NCBI GenBank assembly: GCA_002269645.1
Contig: NIVC01002712.1
Location: 83,582-147,581, forward strand
Source of the DNA: Macrostomum lignano
Lineage: Eukaryota
Length of the DNA stretch: 64,000 nt
Direction: 5' to 3'
This document shows positions 1-64,000 of this stretch, piece after piece (position 1 is the stretch's first letter; the number at the start of each line of letters is the position of its first letter). The notes beneath the pieces were generated by a model. It searched no databases and was not told where the DNA came from. It saw nothing but the letters and a program-made list of their open reading frames with translations. Both the position numbers and the translations under genes were made by a program.

Positions 1-453
1 AGTGAGTGGAACAAACAACAGAAAAAGCAGACAAACTTCACATGCTTACAGTTTCTTTTTCGGTTGAGTTACAGAGTTGAAACTTTACATTTAGATAGAG
101 AATAAGTCAATGAAGAACTGTGTCAAATTGGAAGTCAATCGCTTGACGTGGAGCAAACTTATGGCAGCTGAAATTTACTCAATTTTGAAACCCTTTTACA
201 CATCTGGGCCCAGATAGGTATCGGGAAAGAGAGGCAGGCAGGCGGAGGTTGGGGTGGCTGCCTCGCTGAAAAAAACAGTTTAACTTTAAAAGTGCACAGC
301 ACCGCTCAGGATTAACTTTGAGACTCGAAATTTTACACGATTGTGTCAAAATAGTTGAAGATTGATTGTGTTGAATTTGAAGAGAATCGGTAGAAGTGGA
401 TGATTTAGTGAAAAAATCGCGCATTTTGACCAGTTTTTTGCACTTTTAGGTAG
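1..453. repeat. Interspersed repeat copy A, left part (target of the Gypsy insertion)
   Basis: Colinear with 11531-11983. Confidence 0.85.
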
Positions 454-1028
454 TGTAGTAGGGCATTATTTTAGAAACGGAAATTTTTCAGGTTTAGATA
501 TGCTTTTACCCTACTATCAGTAGTTTCAACCCGGGGAAATAATTAGAGCGGGGTTAAGTGGATAAAATTGGGGTTCCTTTAGAACTACAGAGCAGTTGGG
601 CTCTCGGGAAAGAAAACTCGGACCTTCGTTGGAGTGTCTTCTCCTGTTTAAACTTAGAGAGTTCACGAAGAAGTGGTAAGGAAAGGGAAATATAAGGGAT
701 AGGCTTGCACTGAGGAGTCTTGCCTCTAAAAACTGGGAGTCTTGCCCAAGCACTATAACGGGAATAAGGAAATAGGGAATTAATGTAAAGCAAAACTAAC
801 TTTTGTACCGTAATTCACTTTTCTATTATAAAATTTATTTTTTTTGTGTTAACTAAATCCAAATTGGTGTCCTGACTTGGTTCTTTAAGCCTAAAGCTAG
901 AATTAAGGAACAGCAGGAACCTGGTGGCAGCGAACTACCAAACATTAAGCAGTACCACAGATAGCAATCCGCTCATAATCCTTAGCAATAAGAACCAGTA
1001 GCTTAGCCGCGGTTACACGCCCATTCCA
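454..1028 (+). repeat. 5' LTR
   Basis: TGTAGTAGGG...CCATTCCA; I found no differences from 8332-8906 by eye, and the ORF track gives identical spurious peptides in both copies. Confidence 0.95.
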
Positions 1029-1030
1029 AT

Positions 1031-1040
1031 TGGTGGCAGC
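1031..1040 (+). promoter_or_regulatory. Primer-binding site, tRNA-Leu-like (partial)
   Basis: TGGTGGCAGC lies 2 nt after the LTR end and is complementary to a tRNA 3' end ...GCTGCCACCA. It diverges from the canonical Leu PBS after 10 nt. Confidence 0.75.
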
Positions 1041-1482
1041 TTAGAGGATTAGAATACCCGAGAAGCGCATACATTAGACTGGAGCTTAGGATTAGTAAGG
1101 GATTAACGGATTAACTCCTATGTGCTGAAATTAGAACTAAAACTAACACAAAATTACTAATTAGGTTCTAAATTAGAGATTAATGTACATATTCAGTTGG
1201 TCTAAGATTGTCAAATCACAGATTAACGGATTAACGGATTAGGAACGGATTAACGCTCCTGAAAGGAATTCTAACTTAGTTTCTTCGCTAGAAGATTAGT
1301 AAGGTCTCAATTAAGACCAGAAGTAAGGCAGAAGTAATAAAATTAGAGTCACTGCTGTTTTATTAACTAAAGTCTTACCATTAGGCAATTTAGCAGCTAA
1401 ATTCGGAGTCTTGCCAATTTACTGACCAAAATTATTAAACCAGAAGCGTTAATTCTAAAATCCAACCTAAAATTAAACTAAT

Positions 1483-2526
1483 ATGGAAGCTAATGACGTA
1501 GTAGAAGCACTGGCTGAAGGCATTAGAGACAGGCTAGACATTAGGAAACATATTAGGATCCAAAAGTACACGCCTAATCAGGATATAGACGTGTGGATTC
1601 AGGCTTTTGAGCAGAGGTGTATCGCAGATGAGATACCCCCAGCTGAGTGGAAGAATGAGCTACTGTCTAACCTAGATGTCCAGTCAGCGTTTGCTATAGT
1701 AACAAGGCTAAATTTAGATCCTAATCTAGCATACGCAGACTTTAAGGACAGACTAATTGAGCGATTCACGCATGTAGGTAGTGCTCAAGAAGCTAGGGAA
1801 GAGTTCCGTAGTAGGTTCCAGTGCAAAACTGAAAGCACTGATGACTACGCTGAAAAGCTGACAGAGCTAGCATGCAGGGCGTTTCCCCATCTAACTAACG
1901 ATCAGAGACAGGAAGAGGTGGTGGAACAATTTATCAGAGGTGTTAGGGTTGCCCCAGAGACTAGAGAAAAGCTACTGCTAGCTCAGGTAAACTCGCTTCA
2001 AGAGACACGTCGAGTCTTGCGACGTATCGAAATGGCGTACGCTATGTCTCGCCGAGGTAGAGACCCGCAGCAGTGTAAGGCAACTGGAGGAGAAGAAGCT
2101 GAGAATAGCTTGAAGGAATTAGTCCGCAAGCAGGGTGAGGCGCTAGAGACCCAGCAGAAGGTGCTTCAGGAGTTACTCCGACACCACCAGAACGTTGAGC
2201 AAAAGGTCAAGCAGCAGCAGCCGTCAGGTCAGCAGCAGCAAGGCCAGAATCAGCAAGGGCGTCCCCCAGTAAAGTGTAACAGGTGTGGCAAGCTAGGTCA
2301 CTTAGCTAAGAATTGTAGACAGCCACATCCGCAGAACCAGCTTAGGTACCCGGCTCAGCAGCAAATGCAGTATCAGCAGCCGCAGTATCAGCAGCCGCAG
2401 TATCAGCAGCCGATGTACCCACAGCAGCAGATGCAGCCGCAGTACCCGCAGCCGCAATACCCTCAGCAGCAGAATTCGGGAAACGGAGTAGACGGAAGCG
2501 TCGGAGGCAACGCTTTCCAGCAGTAG
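1483..2526 (+). CDS. gag: Gag (capsid-like region, CCHC zinc knuckle, Q-rich tail), 347 aa
   Basis: Gypsy Gag-like sequence (W..AFE..C; EQFIRG) with the knuckle CNRCGKLGHLAKNC. Confidence 0.93.
   Translation: MEANDVVEALAEGIRDRLDIRKHIRIQKYTPNQDIDVWIQAFEQRCIADEIPPAEWKNELLSNLDVQSAFAIVTRLNLDPNLAYADFKDRLIERFTHVGSAQEAREEFRSRFQCKTESTDDYAEKLTELACRAFPHLTNDQRQEEVVEQFIRGVRVAPETREKLLLAQVNSLQETRRVLRRIEMAYAMSRRGRDPQQCKATGGEEAENSLKELVRKQGEALETQQKVLQELLRHHQNVEQKVKQQQPSGQQQQGQNQQGRPPVKCNRCGKLGHLAKNCRQPHPQNQLRYPAQQQMQYQQPQYQQPQYQQPMYPQQQMQPQYPQPQYPQQQNSGNGVDGSVGGNAFQQ
2478..2518 (+). promoter_or_regulatory. -1 programmed ribosomal frameshift signal
   Basis: G GGA AAC heptamer in gag phase (2478-2484). Nine nt later GGAAGCGT (2494-2501) pairs with ACGCTTTCC (2510-2518) with one bulge. 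The -1 frame is open to 2702. Confidence 0.7.
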
Positions 2527-2619
2527 ATCCCTCACAGTCTGTAGCCTCACAACCTGTAAATAGCAGCGATACTTTTTCTGTAAATAGTGAATTGAATTCT
2601 TCAGTGTATAACAGTAGGC

Positions 2620-4242
2620 ATGCGCAATCATTTAATCAATCATTTAATCAACCAAACATTTACTCTCAGCACTTTTCAACGCACCACAACAGCAACCTAT
2701 TCTAGCAAGCAGCAGCTAAAACAACCAAAATTAACTGAACAAACTAAAAAACAAAGTTACGATCCGTACATCACTGGCAGCATTTTAAATAAGGAAATAG
2801 TTTATCTATTAGACACTGGCAGTAATAGAAATATCTTAGGACGCGAAACCTGGAAGCATCTTTTCACTGGCAAGAATAGGCATCTAATTAAGCATTGGGA
2901 CAATAGAATTGTTTCTTTTATGGAAGAGCCTATTCCAATTAAGGGTTTCGTAGTTATTAAGGCAACATTTGGCGATTTTGAAGAAGAAGTTGAGTTTCTC
3001 TTATGTGACGCAGATGTAGACAATGTAATAGGTGTGACGTTTGTCCAAAATTATTGTACTACTATTGACTTCGATGCAGGAATGCTGACCATGAAACAAG
3101 GAACTAGAATTCCGCTTCGATCAACCAGAGCTAAGCCTCAGGTTAGGAGAATCTATGTCGCAGAAAAAACGACAGTTTCAGCCAATAGTTCAGGATTAGT
3201 CAAGGTCAGATTAGCAGCAGGTAGTGAAACTAATTTCGGAGTGCCATCAGTTATTGAGCCACTCAGATCAGGATTGAAGACTAGAACAGAGAAAGTAACC
3301 GTAGTGCCAAGTTTAGTAACTCTAAGACAAGGGGAAGCTTATTTAGAAGTAATTAACACCAGTTCACAGGAAGCTAGAGTACCAGCATCAGCATTAGTTG
3401 GGATGGCTAAACCACTCTTAGCTAGCGAGCTTAACTATCTGAAGGAACAGCCAGAAGAAGAGCAGAATAAGAGCACGCAGTCTTGCGGAAGCAGAGAAAA
3501 GATCAGTCAGGTACAGGAGAAGTCAGAAGACTGGATTAGTGAGATTAACATAGGAACTGAACTGACTCAGGAACAGAGACAAAAGGTGATCGAGGTCGTC
3601 AAGGAACATTCAGCAGCTTTCTCGCAGCACGAGTTAGACTTAGGCAGAACGCATTTAGTCACACATGAAATTATCTTGAAGGATAACAACCCAGTTCAGA
3701 TACCAGCTAGGAAAATTCCACCTCATTGGATCAAGGAGGTAGATGAACAGTTAGATCTCATGTTGGCTAGAGGCATCATTAGGCCTAGTTACTCGCAGTA
3801 CTCGACTCCATTAGTCATAGTACCTAAGAAAGACGGTTCGCTGAGATTAGTTAACGACTATCGAGCACTAAACAATAAATCGGAGTACTTTCCGTATCCA
3901 ATAACTAATATCAATGAAACATTTTCATGTCTCCATGGAGCCAGTCAATTTTCTACGTTAGATCTATTTTCGGGATATTATCAGATAGCTCTTAGGGAAG
4001 AAGATAAGTGCAAGACTAGCTTTCCAACTTTACATCGAGGCTCGTTTGAGTACGAAGTATTGCCAATGGGACTGCAAGGAGCCCCAGGAACTTTTCAAAG
4101 GTGCATGAACTTAGTTCTTAAGGACATTGCACAAAAGTTCGCCATAGCTTACTTAGACGATGTAATAGTTTATAGTGCAGACTTTGAATCGCATTTAGAA
4201 CACCTGAAAGAAGTGCTCAAGAGACTAATCAAGCTAACATGA
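2620..4242 (+). CDS. pol: Pol part 1: aspartic protease and RT N-terminal part
   Basis: LLDTGS protease motif; RT motifs LRLVNDYRALN, LDLFSGYYQI, PMGL and YLDDV. Truncated by a frameshift at about 4233. Confidence 0.92.
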   Translation: MRNHLINHLINQTFTLSTFQRTTTATYSSKQQLKQPKLTEQTKKQSYDPYITGSILNKEIVYLLDTGSNRNILGRETWKHLFTGKNRHLIKHWDNRIVSFMEEPIPIKGFVVIKATFGDFEEEVEFLLCDADVDNVIGVTFVQNYCTTIDFDAGMLTMKQGTRIPLRSTRAKPQVRRIYVAEKTTVSANSSGLVKVRLAAGSETNFGVPSVIEPLRSGLKTRTEKVTVVPSLVTLRQGEAYLEVINTSSQEARVPASALVGMAKPLLASELNYLKEQPEEEQNKSTQSCGSREKISQVQEKSEDWISEINIGTELTQEQRQKVIEVVKEHSAAFSQHELDLGRTHLVTHEIILKDNNPVQIPARKIPPHWIKEVDEQLDLMLARGIIRPSYSQYSTPLVIVPKKDGSLRLVNDYRALNNKSEYFPYPITNINETFSCLHGASQFSTLDLFSGYYQIALREEDKCKTSFPTLHRGSFEYEVLPMGLQGAPGTFQRCMNLVLKDIAQKFAIAYLDDVIVYSADFESHLEHLKEVLKRLIKLT

Positions 4243-7073
4243 AACTAAAGGCTAAGAAATGTCACCTTTTCAAATCAGAATTACAATATCTAGGACACGT
4301 CATAGGCAAAGCAGGAATTAAGAGAGATGCGTCGAAATTAGAATCAATTAGGAACTGGCCGAAACCTAAATCTGTGACAGAGCTTCGAAGTTTTCTCGGA
4401 CTCTGTAATTACTATAGAAAATTCGTTAGAGATTTTGCCGAGGTAGCAGCACCACTCTGTGAGCTAACGAAGAAGAACATCAAATGTATCCAGGACAAAT
4501 GGACCAGGATCCATGATGAATGCTTCGAGTTGTTGAAGGAACGGATGTGTTCCGAAGAAGTGCTTGCTTACCCAGAGTTCAATACAGACCCCCAAGTTTA
4601 TTTTGTGTTAGACACTGATGCATCAAATGTCAGAATTGGGGCGGTCTTGAATCAAGTTCAGAGCGACGGCATAGAAAGACCGATCGCGTATTATAGTCGG
4701 AAGATGAGGCAGTCAGAAACTAGATATCCGATTACGAGGAAGGAGCTTCTAGCGATTGTTGACTCGCTGAAGTACTTTAGATTTTACCTCGTAGGAAAAC
4801 ATTTTAAGGTGCGCACTGATCACAATGCCCTAACCTGGTTGCTTCGCCAAACCGAACAGACAGGCATTTTAGGTCGTTGGATCGAAAGACTTTCCGAATT
4901 TGATTTTGAGATAGAACATAGGAGTGGCCCTAAACATGTGAATGCTGACGCTCTATCCAGGATCCCTGATCCTCAACCGGAAGAGATGTCCCCACATGCC
5001 AGGTCGCTAAGCTGTAGGGCAACTGTGAATACAGACCCAGCATCAGCTTTTACTGTCAGCTCAGGCAATTCCGCGTTCGCTGAAACCTGTAGCTCGAGCA
5101 GTGGAGTTCCGTCATGCTGTTCGTCACAAGACACTGTCACGAACCGACACAATACTCCGATCTTTAGTAGCAGTAGGCTAGACAATAGACAGGGACAGGA
5201 GCCTAAAACCGGAAATCCGCCTGCATGCAATGCCCTGCTCAGTGACTATCTCCGTAGCCCAGTTCGCCGTGACCAATTGATCGCAGCACAGCTAGCCGAT
5301 CCGGCGGTAGGCTTTGTTAGAAATTTAATTGAGAATGACTCGCCTAAACCGACATTTCAAGAACGACTAGAGTTAACCCACGACTGTAGGAACCTCTTAG
5401 GTTACTATGAGTTGCTCAGAATTGAGGACGGCGTACTCAAAGTAGACTTATCTATGGGGCAGACTGATCCAAAGGTAGTGTTGCCCAAGTCTCTGGATAG
5501 TGAAGTCTTTCACCAATTCCATGATTCACCGTTAGCGGGACACCTAGGTCGAGATAAAACTTATCAGAGAATTAAAATTCGATTTTGGAGGCCAGGATTA
5601 GCAACAGCAGTTGAGCGCTACGTAGCCAAATGTAAATCGTGCTTAGAAAGTAAGACTAGAAGAAGATTTAGGGCACCAATTCAGAACTATCCTGTAGTCG
5701 AACCGTTCGGTAGATTGCACATAGATCTAATAGGACCTATTGGCCAAACTAGCAAATCAGGAAACAAATATGTACTTTCAGTCATAGACAGCACTAGCAA
5801 GTTTCCATTCGCATTCGCAATTAGGAATCAGAAGGCTAAAACAGTTATCAAAATTTTACAAGAACGGGTTTTCGCTGATTTTGGGATTCCACAATGGATT
5901 CACACAGACCAGGGAACACAGTTCACTGGTAGGGCCTTTAAGAAATTTTTAGACCTCTATGGCATTAGACACACTCGAACAACTAGTTATCATCCGCAGA
6001 GCAATGGCTTAGTAGAAAACCTTAATAAGCAGATTAAATCAATTCTCACCTGTTTACTGGAGAAGGAGCATTCCAACTGGGACGTTCTGTTGCCAGGTTG
6101 CATAACAGCTCTGAGAACCAGCACGCACACTGCCACAGGATTTAGTCCGCACTATTTAGTCTTTGGACGAGAGGCCAGAATGCCCTGTGACAATGAGCTG
6201 AATGAGCCAAAGCAGTTTCAGGACCTGCCATCTTATGTCCAGGATCATCAGCAGAATCTGCAGGAAGGCCAAGAACTAGCAAGAAAGAGATTAAAATTAG
6301 TGCAACAAAACCGTGAGCAGGAGTACTCTAATAAGCCTAAGCCGAAAACATTGCCTGTAGGAAGCTTAGTATTTATCAATAATCCAGTAATTGCTAACAC
6401 AGAAGCTAACAAATTTCACAGAAAACAAAGGTCAGTTTACGAAATTGTAGAACAACTATCAGAAGTAGTCTTTAAGATCAGACCAGTTACCAAAAATAAG
6501 AAGGCTAGGAAGGAAGAACTTATTATGCATAGGGATAATTTAATGAAGGTACCACAAGCAGATTATCAGGAAGAAGAAGCTAGTACTAAGCCAAAAGAGC
6601 AGAGGAAACAGCACAATAGGGAACAGTTAGCCAATAGTCAGCCGAATGTGTACAATGACTCAGAAAGTGAAGACGAGTACGAAGACGCAGTGCAGTTTAT
6701 GCCAGTGCAACATCAAAATAATGAGCAGTTTATGCCGGTGCAGCATCAAAATAATGAGCAGTTTATGCCAGTGCAACATCAAAATAATGAGCAGTTTATG
6801 CCAGTGCAAAATCAAAATAATGTGCAGTTAGTGCCAAATCAACAAGTGCAGCATCCAAATAATAATCAAAATAATTTAGTAGGTGTACAAGGAGTTATGC
6901 CGGTACAATTAAATAATAACAATAATAATCTAGGGATTAATTTAGAAGCTAGGCCAGCTAGAGAGCGTCATGCTCCAGATAGATTAACTGTCAGGCCAAA
7001 CCAGAAAAGTTATGTACAGAGGATAGCGGAGTTGTTTAACCCATTTAACCTCTTGCAGCCGAAATCCCAATAA
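4239..7073 (+). CDS. pol: Pol part 2: RT C-terminal part, RNase H, integrase
   Basis: YLGH RT motif; RNase H LDTDAS/ELLAIV/TDH; integrase HDSPLAGH...CKSC zinc motif and DDE triad (HIDLIGP, IHTDQG, GLVEN). Confidence 0.93.
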   Translation: MKLKAKKCHLFKSELQYLGHVIGKAGIKRDASKLESIRNWPKPKSVTELRSFLGLCNYYRKFVRDFAEVAAPLCELTKKNIKCIQDKWTRIHDECFELLKERMCSEEVLAYPEFNTDPQVYFVLDTDASNVRIGAVLNQVQSDGIERPIAYYSRKMRQSETRYPITRKELLAIVDSLKYFRFYLVGKHFKVRTDHNALTWLLRQTEQTGILGRWIERLSEFDFEIEHRSGPKHVNADALSRIPDPQPEEMSPHARSLSCRATVNTDPASAFTVSSGNSAFAETCSSSSGVPSCCSSQDTVTNRHNTPIFSSSRLDNRQGQEPKTGNPPACNALLSDYLRSPVRRDQLIAAQLADPAVGFVRNLIENDSPKPTFQERLELTHDCRNLLGYYELLRIEDGVLKVDLSMGQTDPKVVLPKSLDSEVFHQFHDSPLAGHLGRDKTYQRIKIRFWRPGLATAVERYVAKCKSCLESKTRRRFRAPIQNYPVVEPFGRLHIDLIGPIGQTSKSGNKYVLSVIDSTSKFPFAFAIRNQKAKTVIKILQERVFADFGIPQWIHTDQGTQFTGRAFKKFLDLYGIRHTRTTSYHPQSNGLVENLNKQIKSILTCLLEKEHSNWDVLLPGCITALRTSTHTATGFSPHYLVFGREARMPCDNELNEPKQFQDLPSYVQDHQQNLQEGQELARKRLKLVQQNREQEYSNKPKPKTLPVGSLVFINNPVIANTEANKFHRKQRSVYEIVEQLSEVVFKIRPVTKNKKARKEELIMHRDNLMKVPQADYQEEEASTKPKEQRKQHNREQLANSQPNVYNDSESEDEYEDAVQFMPVQHQNNEQFMPVQHQNNEQFMPVQHQNNEQFMPVQNQNNVQLVPNQQVQHPNNNQNNLVGVQGVMPVQLNNNNNNLGINLEARPARERHAPDRLTVRPNQKSYVQRIAELFNPFNLLQPKSQ
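6692..6825 (+). repeat. 33-bp coding tandem repeat (QFMPVQHQNNE x4) in the integrase tail
   Basis: Four copies of CAGTTTATGCCAGTGCAACATCAAAATAATGAG-type units. Confidence 0.9.
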
Positions 7074-7076
7074 ATC

Positions 7077-7799
7077 ATGGCCGAAGCCCCTCTTCGGGTG
7101 TATCCAAGGAAACGCATCTATGGCCAAGGAAGAAGACAGGAGCAAGATGAGAATGAGCCCCCGCGAATTAGGGCCGTACAATTGGCAGAGCGAGGAGAAG
7201 AACATAAGAGGCGGAAATTAGAGCAACCGGAAGAGAGCGGTGAGCCCGAAGGAAAACTGGTCGTGGACATAGACTTGGAAGAGTTGGAAAGGGAGACGGA
7301 AAGAGAGGAAGAAGCGTTCCGAGAGGAGATGGCCAGATTCATGGAAGAGGTGCGACAGTATGAGGAAGGAAGCCAGCAGGAAGATGGATTAGAGGAAGAA
7401 GAAGAGCGACAGCAACCAGCAGAGGAGCCAGCCGAGCCGCAAGTAGACCCAGAGGAGCAAAAGAGGAAGTTTCGACGCTGCCGCCGGGCCCTCAAGAAGT
7501 ACATACTAAGGACGGGTAAGACCGGTATGTTCGAAACCGAATTACCCGAGGCCTGCGCGTGTTTCTTAACGACAGCAACCAAGGAGGAGGCAATTAAGTG
7601 CTACGAAATAGCCTGTACCTATTGCCTCCAATATGCGGAAAGTAACGCACGCGGCCCCTTCAGTATGAGCGTCACCATGGAGCAACTAGAGTTCTTGGCG
7701 GGAAAATTCGACCCGGAGCGCCAAATGATCCCGGTCAACGGCTTGTTGTATGCATCGGCGCAAAACACTAATAATCTTCGGCCTGTACACGACATCTAA
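7077..7799 (+). CDS. ORF3, accessory retrotransposon protein of unknown function (acidic, NLS-like, Cys-containing), 240 aa
   Basis: Intact ORF starting 3 nt after the pol stop in a good ATCATGG context, inside the LTR boundaries. It has no signal peptide or TM segment, and a homolog lies at about 62.3 kb. Confidence 0.75.
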   Translation: MAEAPLRVYPRKRIYGQGRRQEQDENEPPRIRAVQLAERGEEHKRRKLEQPEESGEPEGKLVVDIDLEELERETEREEEAFREEMARFMEEVRQYEEGSQQEDGLEEEEERQQPAEEPAEPQVDPEEQKRKFRRCRRALKKYILRTGKTGMFETELPEACACFLTTATKEEAIKCYEIACTYCLQYAESNARGPFSMSVTMEQLEFLAGKFDPERQMIPVNGLLYASAQNTNNLRPVHDI

Positions 7800-8320
7800 C
7801 TAGAGTAATCGAACTGCATTTTACTATATAGTGGCTATTTTTTTTTACCATCTCTTGGGACAAATTGCATTAAATCGCTGCCTTGCTTTAATCATAGCAC
7901 TTCCTTTTTACACAAGGACCTGTCCACATTTTACGTTGCGTGCAGTTTTCTAATTTTGATATGTCTACATGTCATTCTTAATAGTGCCAACATGACTCAA
8001 TCCGATGCTAATAAGACACACACCACTTATGCTTATATCTTGTTGTTGTAGTGTGCTAAAAAATTTTTTTTTGTGTTTTGTTTTAGCAATATAGCAATAT
8101 GCAACTTAATAACAATAATTCATTATATATCCTGCATTGTACTCTAATTGTCTAGGAATTCATGTTTACGCATTACATTTTCATATTCATAATAGTTGCT
8201 TACTTAATCCCTATATTCAGTACATCGCTGATAAGCGCATTGATACTTATTACGTAACTCAATTTGTGTTAATAAATATAATCATCAATGTACAAAAGGG
8301 GGTTTTGCACATTTGTTTAG

Positions 8321-8331
8321 CGAGGGGGAGG
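8321..8331 (+). promoter_or_regulatory. Polypurine tract
   Basis: GAGGGGGAGG-type purine run directly upstream of the TG of the 3' LTR. Confidence 0.85.
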
Positions 8332-8906
8332 TGTAGTAGGGCATTATTTTAGAAACGGAAATTTTTCAGGTTTAGATATGCTTTTACCCTACTATCAGTA
8401 GTTTCAACCCGGGGAAATAATTAGAGCGGGGTTAAGTGGATAAAATTGGGGTTCCTTTAGAACTACAGAGCAGTTGGGCTCTCGGGAAAGAAAACTCGGA
8501 CCTTCGTTGGAGTGTCTTCTCCTGTTTAAACTTAGAGAGTTCACGAAGAAGTGGTAAGGAAAGGGAAATATAAGGGATAGGCTTGCACTGAGGAGTCTTG
8601 CCTCTAAAAACTGGGAGTCTTGCCCAAGCACTATAACGGGAATAAGGAAATAGGGAATTAATGTAAAGCAAAACTAACTTTTGTACCGTAATTCACTTTT
8701 CTATTATAAAATTTATTTTTTTTGTGTTAACTAAATCCAAATTGGTGTCCTGACTTGGTTCTTTAAGCCTAAAGCTAGAATTAAGGAACAGCAGGAACCT
8801 GGTGGCAGCGAACTACCAAACATTAAGCAGTACCACAGATAGCAATCCGCTCATAATCCTTAGCAATAAGAACCAGTAGCTTAGCCGCGGTTACACGCCC
8901 ATTCCA
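8332..8906 (+). repeat. 3' LTR
   Basis: Direct copy of 454-1028, preceded by a purine tract and followed by the TSD GTAG. Confidence 0.95.
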
Positions 8907-9083
8907 GTAGGAAGACTCAAATTTAGGAAATTGAAAAGTAGCCTAAGACATTTTCCGTAGTAAGTTTAGGGTGGGTGTAAAGTTTGGTGTATTTTGGTTG
9001 AGCGGTTTGGGAGTCCATAGCGAACGAAATTGTCCACAGACACACAGACAGACAGACAGAGTTTTGATTTTTATATGTAGAGA
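8907..9083. repeat. Interspersed repeat copy A, right part
   Basis: Colinear with 11980-12160; similarity ends at ...TTTTATATGTAGAGA. Confidence 0.85.
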
Positions 9084-11469: not shown

Positions 11470-12160
11470 CATTCGCTACATGTACATTGAGCCCTATCGC
11501 CTGACCCTTCGTCTGGGCTGGCGCTGGGGAAGTGAGCAGCCCAAACAACAGAAAAAGCAAACAAACTTCACATGCTTACAGTTTCCGTCCTGATTGAGAT
11601 ACAGAGTTGAGACTTTACATTTAAACAGAGAATGAGTCAATGAAGAATTGTGTCAAGTTTGAAGTTAATCGCTTCACATGGAGCAAACTTATGGCAGCCG
11701 AAAGTTAGTAGTTTTAAAACCTATTTACACCCTTTGCCCAGATCGGGAGAGGTTGGCGGGCGGAGGTTGGGGTGGCTGCCTCGCTGAAAAAACAGCCAAA
11801 CTTTAAAAGTGCACAGCACCGCTCAGGATTAACTTTGAGACTCGAAATTTTACATGATTGTGCCAAAATAGTTTAAGATTATCTGTGTCAAATTTAAAGA
11901 GAATCGGTAGAAGTGGAGCGGCGCTATGGAGCATTTAGTGAAAAAATCGCGCATTTTGAGAAGTTTTTTGCACTTTTAGGTAGGAAGACTCAAATTTAGG
12001 AAATTAAAAGGTAGCCTAAGACATTCTCCGTAGTAAGTTTAGGGTGGGTGTAAAGTTTGGTGTCATTTGGTTGAGCGGTTTGGGAGTCCATAGCGAACGA
12101 AATTGTCCACAGACACACACACAGACACACACACAGAGTTTTGATTTTTATATGTAGAGA
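11470..12160 (-). mobile_element. Interspersed repeat copy B (empty site); possibly a non-autonomous Helitron-like element
   Basis: Uninterrupted homolog of 1-453 plus 8907-9083. The minus strand begins TC...ATATAAAAAT followed by a TG/TC microsatellite, with an imperfect GC hairpin near 11500. There is no clear CTRR end, so the class is tentative. Confidence 0.5.
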
Positions 12161-18471: not shown

Positions 18472-21400
18472 CTACAGTACATGAAAGACGGCAATGCTAC
18501 TCACGTCCTTCGCCAGCAGGGCCCAAATCGCTTGAAAGTCGTTAATCTGATCGGCCATGGTCCCAGCACCTCTGTGGATTAGTTTGGCTTTCAGTTGCGT
18601 GTCCCGACAGAATTCCAGCGTTGTCAAAACCTCCTGAGAATCGTGACTCTGCAAAGAGTCTTCGAACCATACAGCCGATGTTGAAGTGTTGACAATACTT
18701 TGATCAAGGCAGAGAAACTTGAACAGGGCGTTGAAGTTCAAGTAGTACACGTTGACGTACAGTATGCACTTGGGGAAGAGCTGTCTTGCATATTCGGGAA
18801 GCATGGAAAGTTGCAGAGGCTTGTTGAAGACAAAGCAGAACATCCAAGCGGAGTCAACACTTTCTAGGTGCCTTTTGACGCTTTCCTTCAACAACTCGGG
18901 GTCTGACGATGGGTCGTTCACGGATATTGGTACTCCCTTGGAAACCTGGTGTCCGAGACAAGCGCGCAAGATCTTCTTGGCTTCATCATTTTTCCCGAGA
19001 TCCAATACAGCCAACGCTTTCAGCGTTTCCCGCGCGATGCGAGCAAAGTCAGGAATCTTGGAGAGATTGCGCAGCAGGTCGCGATGGCCAACATCTCGAC
19101 TCTCGGCACTGGATAAACTGAGTAGGGCATCCCGCACTGCCGTGTAAACTTCGTAGTAGTACAGTGGCGTGTCCCGTGAGTAGTTCAGAGATGGCGGCAA
19201 AGGATCTGGTACCAGCATGAACGGGTGAAACACCAAATTGCCTCCACCAACCAGAGGTTGCAGCTGATCCTTGAACTGTCTCAAATAGCCAATGAGGTTT
19301 GCCTCAATCGCCGCCACAGTCTCCGCAATTTGGCTTTTCTCGTTGTAATCAATTTTTAAATAAAGCGGCGCGTCACGAAAGAAGAAGTGGCTCATGCACT
19401 TTGAGGACTGAGGCTCTTGCAGTAAGGCCGTTCGCAGCATTTCAAGAGCGATCCGGACTATCTTGATGAAATTTTCAACCTTCCAGTCATCGCGCGGTAT
19501 CTTGTCAAGCAGTTGAAACATCAATGTCTTCGCGTGGTAAGACCTCAGGCCTATGGCTCTTTTGCTAATCTCTTCTTTCACCAGGTCTTTAATCACGCTG
19601 TACACCTGTCCCTGAACAGTAGTCATGCTACGCAGAAGCCGATTCTCAAGAAATGCTGCACTGCCTCTACATTGTTTACCTTCCTCACCTGGCGGAGCTG
19701 CCTTGACAACGTGACACGGATAGTTCTTCAAGTCGCATTTGAGCTGTTCGATGATGTCTTGAGGAATCTGGGTAGTGTATCCCGGCTCGAGTAGTTGGAT
19801 TCGAGGATAGGTGCATAGCTTGAATGCCTGCACAAGGTCAGTTGCTGGCCTTAGAAAAGAAAATCCTTCCCACGACTGGGCCGGCTTGGAAGCTGAGGGA
19901 TTGATTTGAAATAAGCTTAATGAATTGGGACAAAACGAATCACTGAATGCCCCAGTGGCGTACGCAGCGAGGGAGGGAAAGGGGCCGCCCTAATATAAAG
20001 TTCACTCATTTTAAAACGAAATAAAAAGGTAACTAGAATCAATTAACAACAGGAGCTCAACTTTGCAACCTCTTGGACCATCCACCGATCTCACCCTGTT
20101 TGCCCACCAAGAGACAGAGGCACCCACCAAGAGGCAGGGACGACCACCAAGAGACAGGGGCAACCATCAAGAAACAGGGGCGACCACCAAGAAACAGGGG
20201 CGACCACCAAGAGATAGTGGCGCCCACCAGGACACCAAATATCGGTACCCTTAGGGTTGCAGCTCCTCCAAGTCTAAAATTTCCGCGTACCCCACTGGAG
20301 TGCTCAAAATCGGCATGCGACTCACTTATTCCAGAGATGCATAAATGACCTTGGAAATACTCAAAAGTGTTGTGTTCATCGTGTTTACGCATAGCAGCTG
20401 CAACCAATGAATGTTGGGCATCGATTGTGCACTGACATTGTTCTTTGATGTGGAATAATGCCGTGCGGTTCAAATCAACTATGTCCACATCTGATTTCAA
20501 ATCCGTGGTGCCATTCATTCTTGAACGGTTGTTGCCCCAACACTCGGCGTAACTTCCCACTATATAGATGCTTTCACTTTTCCACCTGGCTCGTAGGATG
20601 TCCTGCTCACAATTTACAACCGCTGCCATCACGCGGGCTCTGTCCGTCACGAACCCTGCTGCATTCATGGCTTCGTGCAGCTCTTGGCTGAAGGCTCTTT
20701 CGTCGAAACTGAAATTTTTCAATGAGATTGATTTACAAAAAGTCCTACTATAGTAACTCTAACAGTGCGACTGTAAAACAAATGTACCTTAAAAAGCATG
20801 CAATCACACCATGACTAATTCCAATCACACACTATGACTAATTCCAATCACACACTATGACTAATTCCAATCACACACTATGACTAATTCCAATCACACA
20901 CCATGACTAATTCCAATCACACACCATGACTAATTCCAATCACACACCATGACTAATTCCAATCACACACCATGACTAATTCCAATCACACACCATGACT
21001 AATTCCAATCACACACCATGACTAATTCCAATCACAGACCATGACTAATTCCAATCACACACCATGACTAATTCTAATCACACAACATGACTAATTCCAA
21101 TCATATACCATGACTAATTCCAATCACACACTATGACTAATTCCAATCACACACTATGACTAATTCCAATCACAGACTATGACAAAGCACAATGGCACTA
21201 GATGTACCACTAATTGTAAAAGGAACCAAACGTACTTTTGAAACCAGTCCAACTCGCAATCTCCTGTCTTGGTCAATAAAAAGGCTGAAAAGTCCATAAG
21301 TGTGATGTTAATGCGGTATAAATATTTCACAAAATGCTATAAAACTGACAGTTTCCGTACCCAAGTATGGCTCCTTATAGGACACCAACTGAGCCAAGAT

Positions 21401-22171
21401 GTTTGTAAGGCCAAAAAATACCGCCAGGCGCACCGGCGTAAAGCCGAATACATTGCATTGATTTGGATTGCATCCGGAATTCAAAAGATGAGACACCACA
21501 TCCTGATTTCCAGCGGTCACCGCATAGTGCAGCGGACTCGATCCGCTATTGTCCAGAGCAACGACGTTGGCGCCTGCACTAATAAGATCACAGACAGCTA
21601 GCTTGGCGCCACACCTGGCAGCGATGTGGAGCGGTGTCTGTCCTACTAGAGTTCGGAGATCAATGTTGGCTTGTGCGCCTTGATGCCCTATTAGCATATT
21701 CAATGCTTTACTGCTTCGATTTCGCATTGCTGCTTCATGCAGAGGCGACCAGCCATCCGCATCCTGATAGTTGCTATCGGCACGATAGTCAAGAAGGAGC
21801 TTCACGCAATCCACGTGACCATTGCCAGCTGAGGCATGCAACGGTGTCCTGCCAATGCCATTAGGCAGATTCGGGTTCGCACCATTCTTCAGCAGGATCC
21901 AAACTGTTGCCGCGTGTCCGTTCCAGGCCGCCCGGTGGAGTGGCGATGTTTGAATTGCGTCAATCGCGTTTACCTCGGCGCGGTGGCGAATAAGCAGTTC
22001 GGACATTGCGGCGTAGCCAAGCCAAGCAGAGTCTGTCAGTGCCGTCCTGCCTCTGTCATCCGGACTGTTTACTTTCAAATTGCCATTTTTCAGTTGCCAA
22101 TTGACATCCCAAATTTTAAAATTCCTAACATTGTCTCGAAAAATCAGCTGGTCAGAATCTGTCGTGGACAT
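18472..22171 (-). CDS. ANK-cGLR paralog 1: ankyrin repeats fused to a Mab-21/cGAS-like nucleotidyltransferase, predicted 887 aa
   Basis: Exons 22171-21361, 21284-21236, 20708-20326 and 19892-18472 are all GT-AG with matching phases (1, 2, 1) and sum to 2664 nt. About 7 ANK repeats (TALTDSAW, SPLHRAA, TPLHASA...). NTase motifs GSYAECWGN...SDVD and TDLVQAF, and the Mab-21 motif SYHAKTLMF. Confidence 0.85.
20085..20230. repeat. 20-bp tandem array (CCACCAAGAGACAGGGGCGA-like) in a cGLR1 intron
   Basis: About 7 degenerate copies. Confidence 0.8.
20803..21183. repeat. 23-bp tandem array (CCATGACTAATTCCAATCACACA) in an ANK-cGLR1 intron
   Basis: About 16 copies. Confidence 0.9.
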
Positions 22172-28744: not shown

Positions 28745-34290
<5,546 letters not shown>

Positions 34291-61239: not shown

Positions 61240-61507
61240 CTTAGCGGAAGAGATGGAGAGGCCAGAGAGAGAGGGAGGAGAAGTAGCGATCGATAATAGT
61301 AACGGAACTGAACAGGGGAAGAGAGAAGGCGCGCATGCGGGCCGCATCGAAAATGGGGATACGCTAGACAAAGAGAGTAATAAAACTATTTGGGTATACA
61401 ACACACGCAGCCGCACTAGGCCACCCGTCAGATACCAGTGTTATCTAAAAAAAGCAACCTACTATATGGAATTTGTTAGAAAACCTAAACTTATAGCAAT
61501 CCAATAA
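61240..61507 (+). pseudogene. Possible remnant of a retrotransposon integrase C-terminal tail
   Basis: Low-complexity stretch ending NTRSRTRPPVRY, typical of LTR-element pol termini and positioned upstream of the ORF3 homolog. No integrase core is visible. Confidence 0.35.
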
Positions 61508-61691
61508 GAATGCAGTTGCAGTTTATTGCGCAACGGCCAGAAAAATTACGAATAATTCTCGTAAATTAAAACAAGTCAGTTTGTTTGAAATAACTCACAG
61601 TGGGGGGGGGCAAAACTATATAAATAAGACACTTGAGACAGGAACGAGGCAAGAGAGAATTTAGAAGCTAGAATTAGGAACAAATTTTACA

Positions 61692-62617
61692 ATGGACGAG
61701 ATAGAATTATTCGCTGATTTTGAAGATCTATTAATCCAATTTACGTTACCAAGCCCAGGAGAAGCGGTGAACGCCCCAAGTATAGGAAACTCAGGAGAGG
61801 CGGTGAACGCCCAAGAACCCAAGAAAGAGCCGAGAGAAATGAGAGCCAAGCAAAAGGAAGAGGCGCAATCTAATAGCAATCAAACCGGCAGCCAGATCTG
61901 CACCGGTGCCGCATGAGCTGGGCGCTCGTGCCGCCTTATTGCAAGCACAGGCTACCAAACCGGTGGTTGTGGAATCAACCATGATGAAGCGCCAGCCTGA
62001 GGTCGCAACGGCCACACAGTACATCGCTGCCAAGCGTCCCCAGACGATAGCGCCCAAGAAAGGCCGGGTCAACGTTGCATTAGCTACGGCCACCGTCAAC
62101 ATCACGACAGCACCCGCGGCAATCGTCGACATCACGGCAGCCGCCGTTGTAGGCAAGTGCAAACCGACGGGGTTTACACCCGAGGACGACGAGTTCCGAC
62201 CGATCTGCGCCTTGAGCTTCGAGATAGGCGAACTGCCCCGCAGCATCCCCAGATGATGCGGGAGCCAATTTTTCGGCCGTGCTAGACACCGTCCCGCAGT
62301 CGCGACAGGACTACTTCAAGAGTTGTATAGGACAGTTGAAAGGCTATCTAGTGAGAGTGGCGCAACTACGGGTAGATGGCCGAGGCTTCCTACCTCAAGC
62401 TGAAGAGCCGCGAGAGCTCATCAAGACGATGAAACTGAGCTTCAACTACGAGCAATGCATTGCTGCTTGGCGCCGAGCGGTCTGTACGCGCTGCAGACGA
62501 TTCACCAGTCGGGCTGGGCGTACTACCAGGCACAAGTCCGACACGAAGTGTGTTGGATGCAGGCTACAGACCTTGGCTGGCCAGGGGCAGACCATCTTCC
62601 GACAGAATTCGCTATGA
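61692..62617 (+). pseudogene. Frameshifted homolog of the Gypsy ORF3 accessory protein
   Basis: Three consecutive frames (61692, 61906, about 62252). The C-terminal YFKSCIGQLKGYLVR...LPQA...EQCI...VCTRC matches ORF3 KFRRCRRALKKYILR...LPEA...EAI...ACTYC. Confidence 0.6.
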
Positions 62618-62681
62618 ATTAGAAAAATAATTAACGTCGCATTTATAAATACTGATTAAATAAGACTCTTATATATACTCG

Positions 62682-63919
62682 TGTGGTGATCCAGCATAGC
62701 TAGCATAGGCTGCTCCTGGGATCCCCCCTTAGTCAGTTAGTGCTTGGGCTGCAGCAGTGGGAGCTGGGCATAGGGCTGTCCCTTCCCCTTCTTCCTTGTG
62801 CAGGCTCAGGTGTGCAGCTGTCGCGGGACAGGGAGAGAAATCTCTCCCCCTCTCCCCCTGGCGCAGTCTGCAATGGGCTAAAAATAGAAACATTAGTCAG
62901 TGGGATATTTCTCCCTTAGTACAGGCTTATTTAGTCAGCGGGAGTGAGAGCATAGCTCTCCGCCCGGGTAGGATCTCGTGGGGTCTTGGTTGCACTCCTT
63001 GCATGCGGCAACATGCAAGCAGTGTACCAGCAGGCCATGCGGAGGCTGCATGATGAGGCAGATGTCTTATGGACATCTCCAAGATCGCTCCTGGCTCCGG
63101 GTAGTCCACGGAACTGCCATGGGATCTGCCACGGAACTGCCTCTGAGCTTCCCATTGGCCCTGAGACCCCCGAAATTTAGTATAAATACAGAATAGGTGA
63201 AGGCCAAAGAGACCATCCTCTCGGAGACCGCCTGCTTGGCTTCGAGCAAAGGCTAGTATTCCTAGATGCTTTTCCTAGACGAACTAGCTTAGGCAGATCG
63301 CTAGACGTTTTTCCTAGGGATAACCTGCTAACAAATCCTTGTTGCAGCTGCCATTTGCTCATTAAGACTGCCGCAGGTCCTTGTGTCAGCAGCTCACCAG
63401 ACCTTCAACACCGTCTGGACCTGGTCTCGTGGCCTACAACCTACACTGCTGGGCAACATCAACTGACGCACAGTACAGCTTAGGGCGTTTACTGCGACAC
63501 CAGTTGAGCTACTAAACGATATTTTAGGATCGGCCTGTGACCGTTACTCACATTAATAAACGATTAACTGACTTGTTTGTCTTATTTATTTTCTACTTAT
63601 CAGTAGGCCTACCTAGGGGTAACCTGTCGAGGATATCACCGGTAGACCTACAAGGTGGCAGCAACCCAACTACCAATACTCGGTTATTATCTAACTGTAC
63701 TCAGTGGAGACTAAGAGGGTTAATTCGGACCATATGTTAGACCACTCAGGCCAGCTACCGGCCGTGCTAGATAGCGAGGACAGACAGAGGAAGTAGTAGG
63801 CAACAACAGTAATCACCAAAGAGACGGGGATCCACAAGGCCATTACATTGGTTACATTGGTGGATCCGGCACCAGCATTACATTGGTGGCAGCGGAGAGC
63901 AAAAGGCACAGCCATTACA
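62682..63919 (+). mobile_element. LTR of a second LTR retrotransposon extending beyond the window
   Basis: Begins TGTGG (start tentative), has TATAAATA at 63181 and AATAAA at about 63555, and ends ...TTACA followed by an 18-nt PBS. Confidence 0.65.
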
Positions 63920-63920
63920 C

Positions 63921-63938
63921 TGGTGGCAGCGGTGGGAT
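63921..63938 (+). promoter_or_regulatory. Primer-binding site complementary to the tRNA-Leu 3' end
   Basis: TGGTGGCAGCGGTGGGAT is the reverse complement of ATCCCACCGCTGCCACCA, the eukaryotic tRNA-Leu(AAG)-type 3' terminus. Confidence 0.88.
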
Positions 63939-64000
63939 ATCAAGACCTACCCGACCACCAGGGAAATCCTTGTTCTATCTCGGGCGAAAGCCACGGCATA

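What the first reader, a model, noticed from the sequence alone, without database searches (positions are those of the whole stretch)
7077..7799. Gypsy element carries an intact non-env accessory ORF3 of an apparently uncharacterised family
Seen: a 240-aa ORF starts 3 nt after the pol TAA. It has basic NLS-like patches (PRKR, KRRK), a long Glu-rich region and a Cys-containing C-terminal domain, with no signal peptide or TM helix. It remains intact while pol has indels. A diverged homolog at 62.3-62.6 kb shares F-x2-C-x3-L-K-x-Y-x2-R, LP[EQ]A and CTxC, so it is probably a conserved domain rather than chance. Inference: a nuclear, possibly Zn-binding accessory factor such as a transactivator, chaperone or anti-silencing protein, translated by termination-reinitiation or from a subgenomic RNA.
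Basis: partly seen in the sequence, partly recalled or inferred. Interest (0 to 1): 0.72.

Follow-up and report, generated by a model that had tools for sequence, protein, structure and literature searches.

The report
Swappable accessory gene in flatworm retrotransposons
A large group of jumping genes in what is likely a flatworm genome carries an extra, conserved gene of no known family that comes in dozens of deeply different versions on nearly identical backbones, and it likely encodes a nuclear protein that helps the element switch itself on against host silencing.

Summary
The ORF is real. It is the third gene of a young Gypsy element (identical LTRs), has no membrane segment, and is under purifying selection (pN/pS mostly 0.06-0.3). 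Its C-terminal four-helix domain defines a family of three subfamilies with hundreds of matches in this genome, all in one RT clade. It has no Pfam, PDB or fold match; named homologues are Macrostomum only. The Cys are not shared, so zinc binding is unsupported. The CTxC at 62.5 kb is a frameshift artefact. 'Intact while pol is broken' is what gene length predicts. New here: deeply diverged ORF3 types (synonymous sites saturated) sit on 95-99% identical gag-pol backbones, exchanged as an ORF3 + 3'UTR cassette. Relatives have a TATA/CCAAT stretch upstream and an acidic activation-domain-like motif, and young pol-less elements keep ORF3 under selection. Best guess (about 0.4): a nuclear trans-activator or anti-silencing factor. 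Function is untested. The scan had not noted this family before; it had noted an unrelated J-domain ORF3 lineage in this genome.

The parts
454..1028 (+). 5' LTR (TG...CA), 4-bp target-site duplication at 450-453 and 8907-8910
   Evidence: 100% identical to the 3' LTR; sequence
1031..1040 (+). Primer-binding site; tRNA-Leu assignment is recalled, not tested
1483..2526 (+). gag (Retrotrans_gag, one CCHC knuckle); slippery heptamer at 2478 suggests a -1 frameshift into pol
2472..7073 (+). pol (PR-RT-RNase H-IN, long N/Q-rich tail); frame breaks near 2.68-2.70 kb and 4.23 kb in this copy
7040..7058 (+). Splice-acceptor-like island (branch-like TTAAC, pyrimidines, CAG) 18 nt before the ORF3 ATG; use inferred, not shown
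   Evidence: CAG at this place in 22 of 23 distinct contexts; strict test 6 of 23 against 1 of 690 background windows
7077..7799 (+). ORF3, 240 aa, family A type 1
7089..7217 (+). Conserved N-terminal P-x-R-x-Y-x-x-K-x-I-Y motif and basic NLS-like patches
   Evidence: basic patch in 23 of 24 family-A proteins
7275..7370 (+). Acidic amphipathic helix (aa 67-98), activation-domain-like
7449..7754 (+). C-terminal four-helix domain (aa 125-226), predicted at pLDDT about 90 or more; the family-defining domain
7800..8331 (+). AT-rich 3' UTR, exchanged together with ORF3; polypurine tract at its end
8332..8906 (+). 3' LTR
61247..61692 (+). Pol-ORF3 spacer of a family-B remnant with CCAAT, G-run and TATA (candidate internal promoter)
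61693..62620 (+).

Best explanation
ORF3 is a conserved accessory gene of one Gypsy clade, present as many old versions on nearly identical gag-pol backbones, and it likely encodes a nuclear trans-activator or anti-silencing factor for the element's own transcription. Shown: the gene, its selection, the three subfamilies, the mosaic ORF3 + 3'UTR cassette, and its retention in pol-less elements. Predicted: the four-helix domain. Inferred: ORF3 is made from its own short RNA (internal promoter in B and C, splice acceptor or internal start in A); basic patches take it to the nucleus; the acidic hydrophobic helix recruits host co-activators; the basic helical domain binds the element's chromatin or a host silencing factor. 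Also inferred: template switching in co-packaged RNAs moves the cassette between backbones, and rare versions are favoured because they escape host recognition.
For: Purifying selection: upper 95% bound of pN/pS below 1 in 21 of 22 (non-independent) pairs. Mosaic: window against L041 is 97-99% identical across gag-pol but about 62% in ORF3 and 50% in the 3'UTR; L058 against L060 has pS 0.000 in gag and RT but 0.735 in the ORF3 domain; RT-RH and ORF3 trees of 24 copies reject each other (AU p 0.009 and 8e-52); family C shows the same (gag 98%, RT 98%, IN 95%, ORF3 domain 49-51%). Acidic Phi-x-x-Phi-Phi motif outside the domain in 16 of 24 A, 12 of 21 B and 17 of 17 C proteins against shuffle means 1.5, 0.2 and 0.04. 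Basic patch in 23 of 24 A proteins. TATA upstream in 8 of 17 B (shuffle mean 2.0) and 10 of 17 C (mean 1.3, none of 1000 shuffles reach it). Nine of 18 fetched family-C places are pol-less elements with paired LTRs (94-100% alike); in 8 of these 9 ORF3 is the only ATG-led ORF over 200 aa, and two pol-less pairs show 10 synonymous to 6 non-synonymous changes (p 0.002 against neutrality).
Against: No functional data and no structural match that names a function. U3 does not track ORF3 type in family A (87.9% within type 1, 15 pairs; 89.1% between types, 36 pairs), which argues against a strict type-specific target in the LTR. The acidic motif was defined after looking at the sequences, and the window's own protein misses the strict charge threshold. 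Repeated motifs in the 3'UTR occur in some types (L053, L060, L067) but not in the window's. Family A has no TATA in the 600 nt before ORF3. Pol-less elements can pick up an intact ORF3 by recent recombination (L189 shares 2.6 kb at 95% with autonomous L188). Gag-pol homogenisation alone could leave many ORF3 types without selection for diversity.
Confidence: 0.42

Rival explanations
1. ORF3 would be a Rev/CERV-like factor that binds the element's RNA, perhaps in the co-exchanged 3'UTR, and exports or stabilises the unspliced genome.
For: Basic NLS-like patches and a conserved basic first helix; the 3'UTR travels with ORF3; an acceptor-like site would make the genomic RNA intron-retaining; pol-less elements also need export; CERV is a precedent in an LTR retrotransposon (PMC10309623, passages and section 15).
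Against: No stable 3'UTR fold: 1 of 30 windows reached z below -2; no Cys loop; where ORF3 has its own promoter the genome need not retain an intron; an acidic activation-like motif is not needed for export. Co-exchange of the UTR also follows from where homology ends.
Confidence: 0.2
2. ORF3 would be a protein-level antagonist of a host defence (piRNA or restriction factor, possibly by recruiting a ligase or scaffold), and its types would reflect an arms race with that factor.
For: A disordered linker with short conserved motifs plus a small helical bundle is typical of adaptors; diversity is concentrated in this gene; another Gypsy lineage here carries J-domain adaptors in the same slot (scan notes).
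Against: No pair shows pN/pS significantly above 1; a general suppressor is a shared good that pol-less elements need not keep, yet they keep it under selection.
Confidence: 0.2
3. ORF3 would be an exclusion or incompatibility factor among competing elements (or a selfish toxin/antidote module), with types acting like serotypes.
For: At least 41 types at 85% identity among 76 domains examined; retention by pol-less parasites that also carry a diverged short gag.
Against: No second partner gene; elements with different types share LTRs and all have recent insertions; nothing ties the domain to a toxin fold.
Confidence: 0.1
4. ORF3 would be a diverged env, Gag fragment, zinc-finger or J-domain protein.
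For: It sits in the env slot; one helix looks like J-domain helix II by eye.
Against: No hydrophobic segment in 34 A and 17 B proteins; no hit to the element's Gag; profile comparisons with host J-domains give 0.1% and 0.4% and with the J-lineage C-domain 0.4% and 0.8%; Cys not shared.
Confidence: 0.04

Closest known systems
Foamy virus Tas (Bel1), recalled; Tas and the internal promoter seen only in figure-legend passages of PMC7828637
   Same: Accessory gene between the structural genes and the 3' LTR; internal promoter (B and C, predicted); acidic and basic segments
   Different: No sequence or fold link found; a retrotransposon without env; LTR does not co-vary with ORF3 type; activation untested
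VANC of Arabidopsis VANDAL transposons (PMC5735166, abstract)
   Same: Element-encoded extra protein diversified into many types within a related group; repeated motifs in non-coding DNA of some types
   Different: DNA transposon in a plant; no homology found; type-specific targets not shown here and not in U3
CERV of C. elegans Cer1 (PMC10309623, passages and section 15)
   Same: Non-env nuclear accessory protein of a Gypsy element with no retroviral homologue
   Different: CERV is 517 aa, shares its start with Gag and needs a Cys loop; ORF3 lies after pol and has no conserved Cys cluster
Non-env ORF3s of bdelloid Juno and Vesta elements (PMC5408684, abstract and section 3.3)
   Same: Family-specific non-env cargo in the third slot, modular exchange
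   Different: Those are captured enzymes (DEDDy, GDSL); this one has no host or viral source found
Oikopleura Tor3b/4b env and plant additional ORFs (PMC4402516 and PMC7264820, passages)
   Same: Third ORF with its own promoter in or after pol; some plant ones are nuclear
   Different: Tor's product is a membrane glycoprotein; the nuclear plant ORFs discussed are antisense and unrelated
J-domain ORF3 lineage of the same genome (scan notes)
   Same: Same slot; acidic linker plus C-terminal helical domain
   Different: Separate RT clade (about 40% identity; tree 100/100); no detectable homology

Membership tests
Ty3/Gypsy LTR retrotransposon | LTRs, target duplication, PBS, PPT, gag then PR-RT-RH-IN | tested here: met
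Named Gypsy clade (Mag, CsRN1, Gmr1/Osvaldo, Mdg3) | RT groups with reference elements | not tested
   No reference RT set at hand; two window stretches were not found in the five supplement files of PMC12801592
Env / fusion glycoprotein | Signal peptide and transmembrane helix | tested here: not met
   Best 19-residue hydropathy 0.54; at most 0.65 in 33 further A ORFs and 1.02 in 17 B
Zinc-binding domain | Four conserved Cys/His ligands, usually CxxC pairs | tested here: not met
   A: Cys columns 8, 15, 9 and 13 of 15, no conserved CxxC; B and C have none at these places. A site limited to some A types is not excluded
J-domain (DnaJ) | HPD motif and profile match | tested here: not met
   No HPD; profile comparisons 0.1-0.4%; no Pfam hit
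J-domain (DnaJ) | J-domain fold | tested here: inconclusive
   Fold searches give only generic helical bundles, best Z 6.6 and 7.9
Tas-like transactivator | Own internal promoter | tested here: inconclusive
   TATA enriched in B and C, absent in A; no start-site data
Tas-like transactivator | Binds LTR or internal promoter and activates | not testable with these tools
   Needs reporter and chromatin assays
VANC-like anti-silencing factor | Protein type co-varies with target motifs | tested here: inconclusive
   U3 does not co-vary; 3'UTR does, with repeats in some types only
CERV/Rev-like export factor | Made from a spliced RNA | tested here: inconclusive
   Acceptor-like site; none of 13 joints listed reaches it; no spliced retrocopy among 16 incomplete copies examined
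CERV/Rev-like export factor | Structured RNA response element | tested here: inconclusive
   No stable fold in four 3'UTRs; other regions not scanned

The most novel reading that the evidence does not exclude
An animal retrotransposon clade runs a serotype system: one new helical regulator, expressed from its own RNA, is kept as dozens of ancient alleles by frequency-dependent selection against host silencing, is traded as a cassette among near-identical backbones, and is the one gene that pol-less parasites keep in order to switch themselves on.
Probability: 0.25. Interest if true: 0.86.

Novelty: new variant of a known kind. Interest (0 to 1): 0.66.

Why it matters
Few counter-silencing or regulatory proteins are known from animal LTR retrotransposons. 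This one is a new protein family with a compact predicted domain, in a host that by its homologues' names is a transgenic- and RNAi-tractable flatworm. The deep ORF3 polymorphism on near-identical gag-pol is a natural experiment: it points to the one gene where host and element (or element and element) conflict is recorded, and it makes balancing selection on a transposon gene directly testable. It also shows that RT-based family annotation hides most of this clade's functional diversity.

Tried and rejected
No family or structure match: Pfam for ORF3 and 30 further family proteins or domains, nothing over a curated cut-off; word-based homologue searches, none for the A domain and the B alignment, one Macrostomum-named protein for C; ESM Atlas no usable hit; PDB sequences best E 0.028; Foldseek PDB and viral, no E below 0.001; VIA best Z 6.6 and 7.9, generic bundles (cullin repeats, B12-binding caps), not read as function. 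Viral and metagenome contigs: no relative. Of 8 profile hits among 1.84 billion proteins, 3 (P0006, P0007, P0009) are repeat proteins and were dropped as chance. J-domain origin rejected. Zinc binding and CTxC rejected. Differential intactness rejected as evidence. Stop read-through rejected as a shared mechanism: the stop-to-ATG gap is 2, 3 or 4 nt. No RNA holder is listed on record; contigs of three guessed-RNA runs cover ORF3, which does not show transcription level or a separate RNA, and no joint to the acceptor was listed. No spliced retrocopy found. No self-association prediction was obtained, so oligomerisation is open. Paper searches listed no description of this ORF.

Full report
1. 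The element. Window 454-8906 is a complete, very young Ty3/Gypsy insertion: LTRs 100% identical, 4-bp target duplication, PBS, polypurine tract, gag with one CCHC knuckle, and PR-RT-RNase H-IN. A slippery heptamer at 2478 and overlapping frames in stop-free sister copies suggest a -1 frameshift. This copy's pol changes frame near 2.68-2.70 kb and 4.23 kb. ORF3 (7077-7799, 240 aa) starts 3 nt after the pol stop. Four of the five true homologues found in public proteins carry source names of Macrostomum lignano and one is unnamed, so the host is likely that flatworm or a close relative.

2. The observation. Coordinates, basic patches, acidic middle and lack of a membrane segment are as described. 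The 62.3-kb stretch is a homologue, but not for all the reasons given. Its pairwise alignment is only modestly significant (11 of 2000 shuffles). It belongs to a second family (B, 106 matches of 139 candidates), and the profiles of families A and B align at 92.9%, E 3.8e-7, over 64 columns. The B profile scores 14 of 15 A domains above the best of 750 shuffles; the A profile does so for only 6 of 19 B domains. The 62-kb gene is broken into four frame segments and its CTxC lies out of frame. Intactness against pol carries no weight: 24 (strictly 23) of 37 copies keep ORF3, against 70% expected from pol's break rate.

3. The family. The domain has 83 matches of 102 candidates in G000. I fetched 58 of these places; 46 have integrase sequence upstream in the fetched stretch, two of them a distant one. 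A profile of A and B over 1.84 billion representatives gave 8 hits: 5 true homologues and 3 repeat proteins that I dropped. These revealed subfamily C (135 matches of 150 scored, partly overlapping B's list). C links clearly to B by shared motifs and only weakly to A directly (7%, E 0.005). In an RT tree of 22 rows, A, B and C form one side of a 100/100 branch against the J-domain lineage. AlphaFold gives a confident four-helix domain for A (aa 125-226) and the same helix order, with one extra short helix in front, for B (mean pLDDT 86). Both models meet the same chains in the same register (4heh_B, 8gq6_C, 1paq_A and others), at best Z 6.6 and 7.9, which the tool rates as a common arrangement. 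Residues shared across A and B are P, A, Y, L, P, K and L; none is Cys.

4. Selection and mosaicism. In the domain, pN/pS is 0.06-0.31 within groups and 0.46-0.61 across groups where synonymous sites are saturated; the upper bound is below 1 in 21 of 22 bootstrapped pairs, which are not independent. The same pairs differ little in gag-pol: window against L041 pS 0.05-0.09 in gag, PR, RT, RH and IN but 0.95 in ORF3; L058 against L060 pS 0.000 in gag and RT but 0.735 in ORF3. Sliding identity falls from 97-99% to about 62% at the start of ORF3, to 50% in the 3'UTR, and recovers at the LTR. Trees of RT-RH and ORF3 for 24 copies reject each other. Family C repeats the pattern, and B and C pairs with identical RT have 45-49% identical domains. 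At 85% identity there are 10 types among 31 A domains, 17 among 27 B and 14 among 18 C; B and C were fetched for diversity (40 of 106 and 18 of 135 places), so these are not frequencies. So ORF3 is not evolving fast under positive selection; old, conserved versions are being exchanged onto young backbones. Selection for diversity is an inference; sweeps of gag-pol through an old pool would give a similar picture.

5. Expression. In B, 16 intact genes lie 173-440 nt behind pol; in C, 8 lie 228-535 nt behind it. TATA is enriched 35-130 nt upstream in B (8 of 17; shuffle mean 2.0, maximum 8 in 1000) and 60-130 nt upstream in C (10 of 17; mean 1.3), often with CCAAT. Reinitiation cannot explain these. 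In A the stop lies 2-4 nt before the ATG in 21 of 23 contexts and position -3 is a purine in all 23 (the +4 G was part of my search pattern); a CAG after pyrimidines lies just upstream in 22 of 23, 6 of 23 by a strict test against 1 of 690 background windows. No splice to it was seen among 13 joints in four runs, and two runs read straight from pol into a sister ORF3. The route in A is open.

6. Pol-less elements. Nine of 18 fetched C places are LTR elements without pol; 8 have ORF3 as their only ATG-led ORF over 200 aa. They share an internal region with a short diverged gag. In two pairs whose internal regions are 90-96% alike, the domain has 10 synonymous and 6 non-synonymous changes (p 0.002). 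This suggests a benefit to the carrier itself, although recent capture from helpers also occurs.

7. Mechanism. All three subfamilies combine an acidic hydrophobic motif (defined after inspection, and narrowly missed by the window's own protein), basic patches and the helical domain. With a separate promoter and retention in cis, this fits a trans-activator or anti-silencing factor best (0.42). Against a strict key for the LTR, U3 does not follow ORF3 type. RNA export (0.2), antagonism of a host defence protein (0.2) and exclusion among elements (0.1) remain; env, Gag, zinc finger and J-domain are excluded as far as sequence can.

8. What is known. Non-env third ORFs exist: captured enzymes in bdelloid elements (PMC5408684, abstract and section 3.3), CERV in Cer1 (PMC10309623, passages and section 15), internal-promoter env in Tor (PMC4402516, passages), plant additional ORFs (PMC7264820, passages), and VANC as a diversified anti-silencer (PMC5735166, abstract). 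The survey of this flatworm's LTR elements (PMC12801592, passages, supplement 1 whole, term searches in five supplement files) has no occurrence of 'ORF' in its main text and none of 'ORF3' in the supplements searched. Eight paper searches listed no description of this gene. The library lacks most subscription journals, that paper's earlier classification study was not seen, bioRxiv supplements are closed, and repeat databases could not be searched, so prior annotation is not excluded. The scan's own notes hold no look-alike; they describe the unrelated J-domain lineage.

9. Verdict. A real, selected, undescribed accessory gene family; a new variant of a known kind. Interest 0.66, raised by the cassette polymorphism and the pol-less carriers, held down by the lack of any functional evidence and the narrow known host range.

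Noticed in passing
window 2552-6047, minus strand: Contigs of two guessed-RNA runs from two studies (X5, X6), but not X1 or X15, skip 3,496 nt at canonical antisense splice sites: an antisense spliced RNA across pol, or a host transcript reading into a copy.
   Followed up: partly
L189-L192, L194, L197-L199, L205: Young pol-less LTR elements of 5-7 kb with PBS, a diverged short gag-derived ORF conserved among them, and ORF3; ORF3 types are exchanged within this lineage too.
   Followed up: partly
window 18472-22171 and 28745-34284, minus strand: Two Mab-21 C-domain ORFs, one beside an ankyrin-repeat ORF with a Pfam match and one beside an ankyrin-looking ORF not scanned; possibly tandem cGAS-like receptor genes.
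   Followed up: partly
window 922 and 8800: A second copy of the PBS decamer lies inside each LTR, also in many relatives.
   Followed up: no
window 1-453 and 8907-9083 against 11531-12160: The element has inserted into an older repeat that has an uninterrupted copy 2.6 kb downstream.
   Followed up: no
window 6580-7073: The pol tail is a long N/Q-rich repeat; a CCAAT at 6631 matches the position where family-B pol ends and its spacer begins, so the tail may be a former spacer.
   Followed up: partly
window 62620-64000: After the family-B remnant come LTR-like sequence and two PBS-like motifs (63885, 63921); a 99% identical stretch on another contig continues into a gag, suggesting tandem elements.
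   Followed up: partly
L180-L184, L187: A separate Gypsy clade has J-domain + acidic linker + helical-domain ORF3s, one with a chromodomain-like insert.
   Followed up: partly
window 7260-7283: A conserved V/I-V/I-D-I/L stretch followed by acidic residues resembles a SUMO-interacting motif (label recalled, not tested).
   Followed up: no
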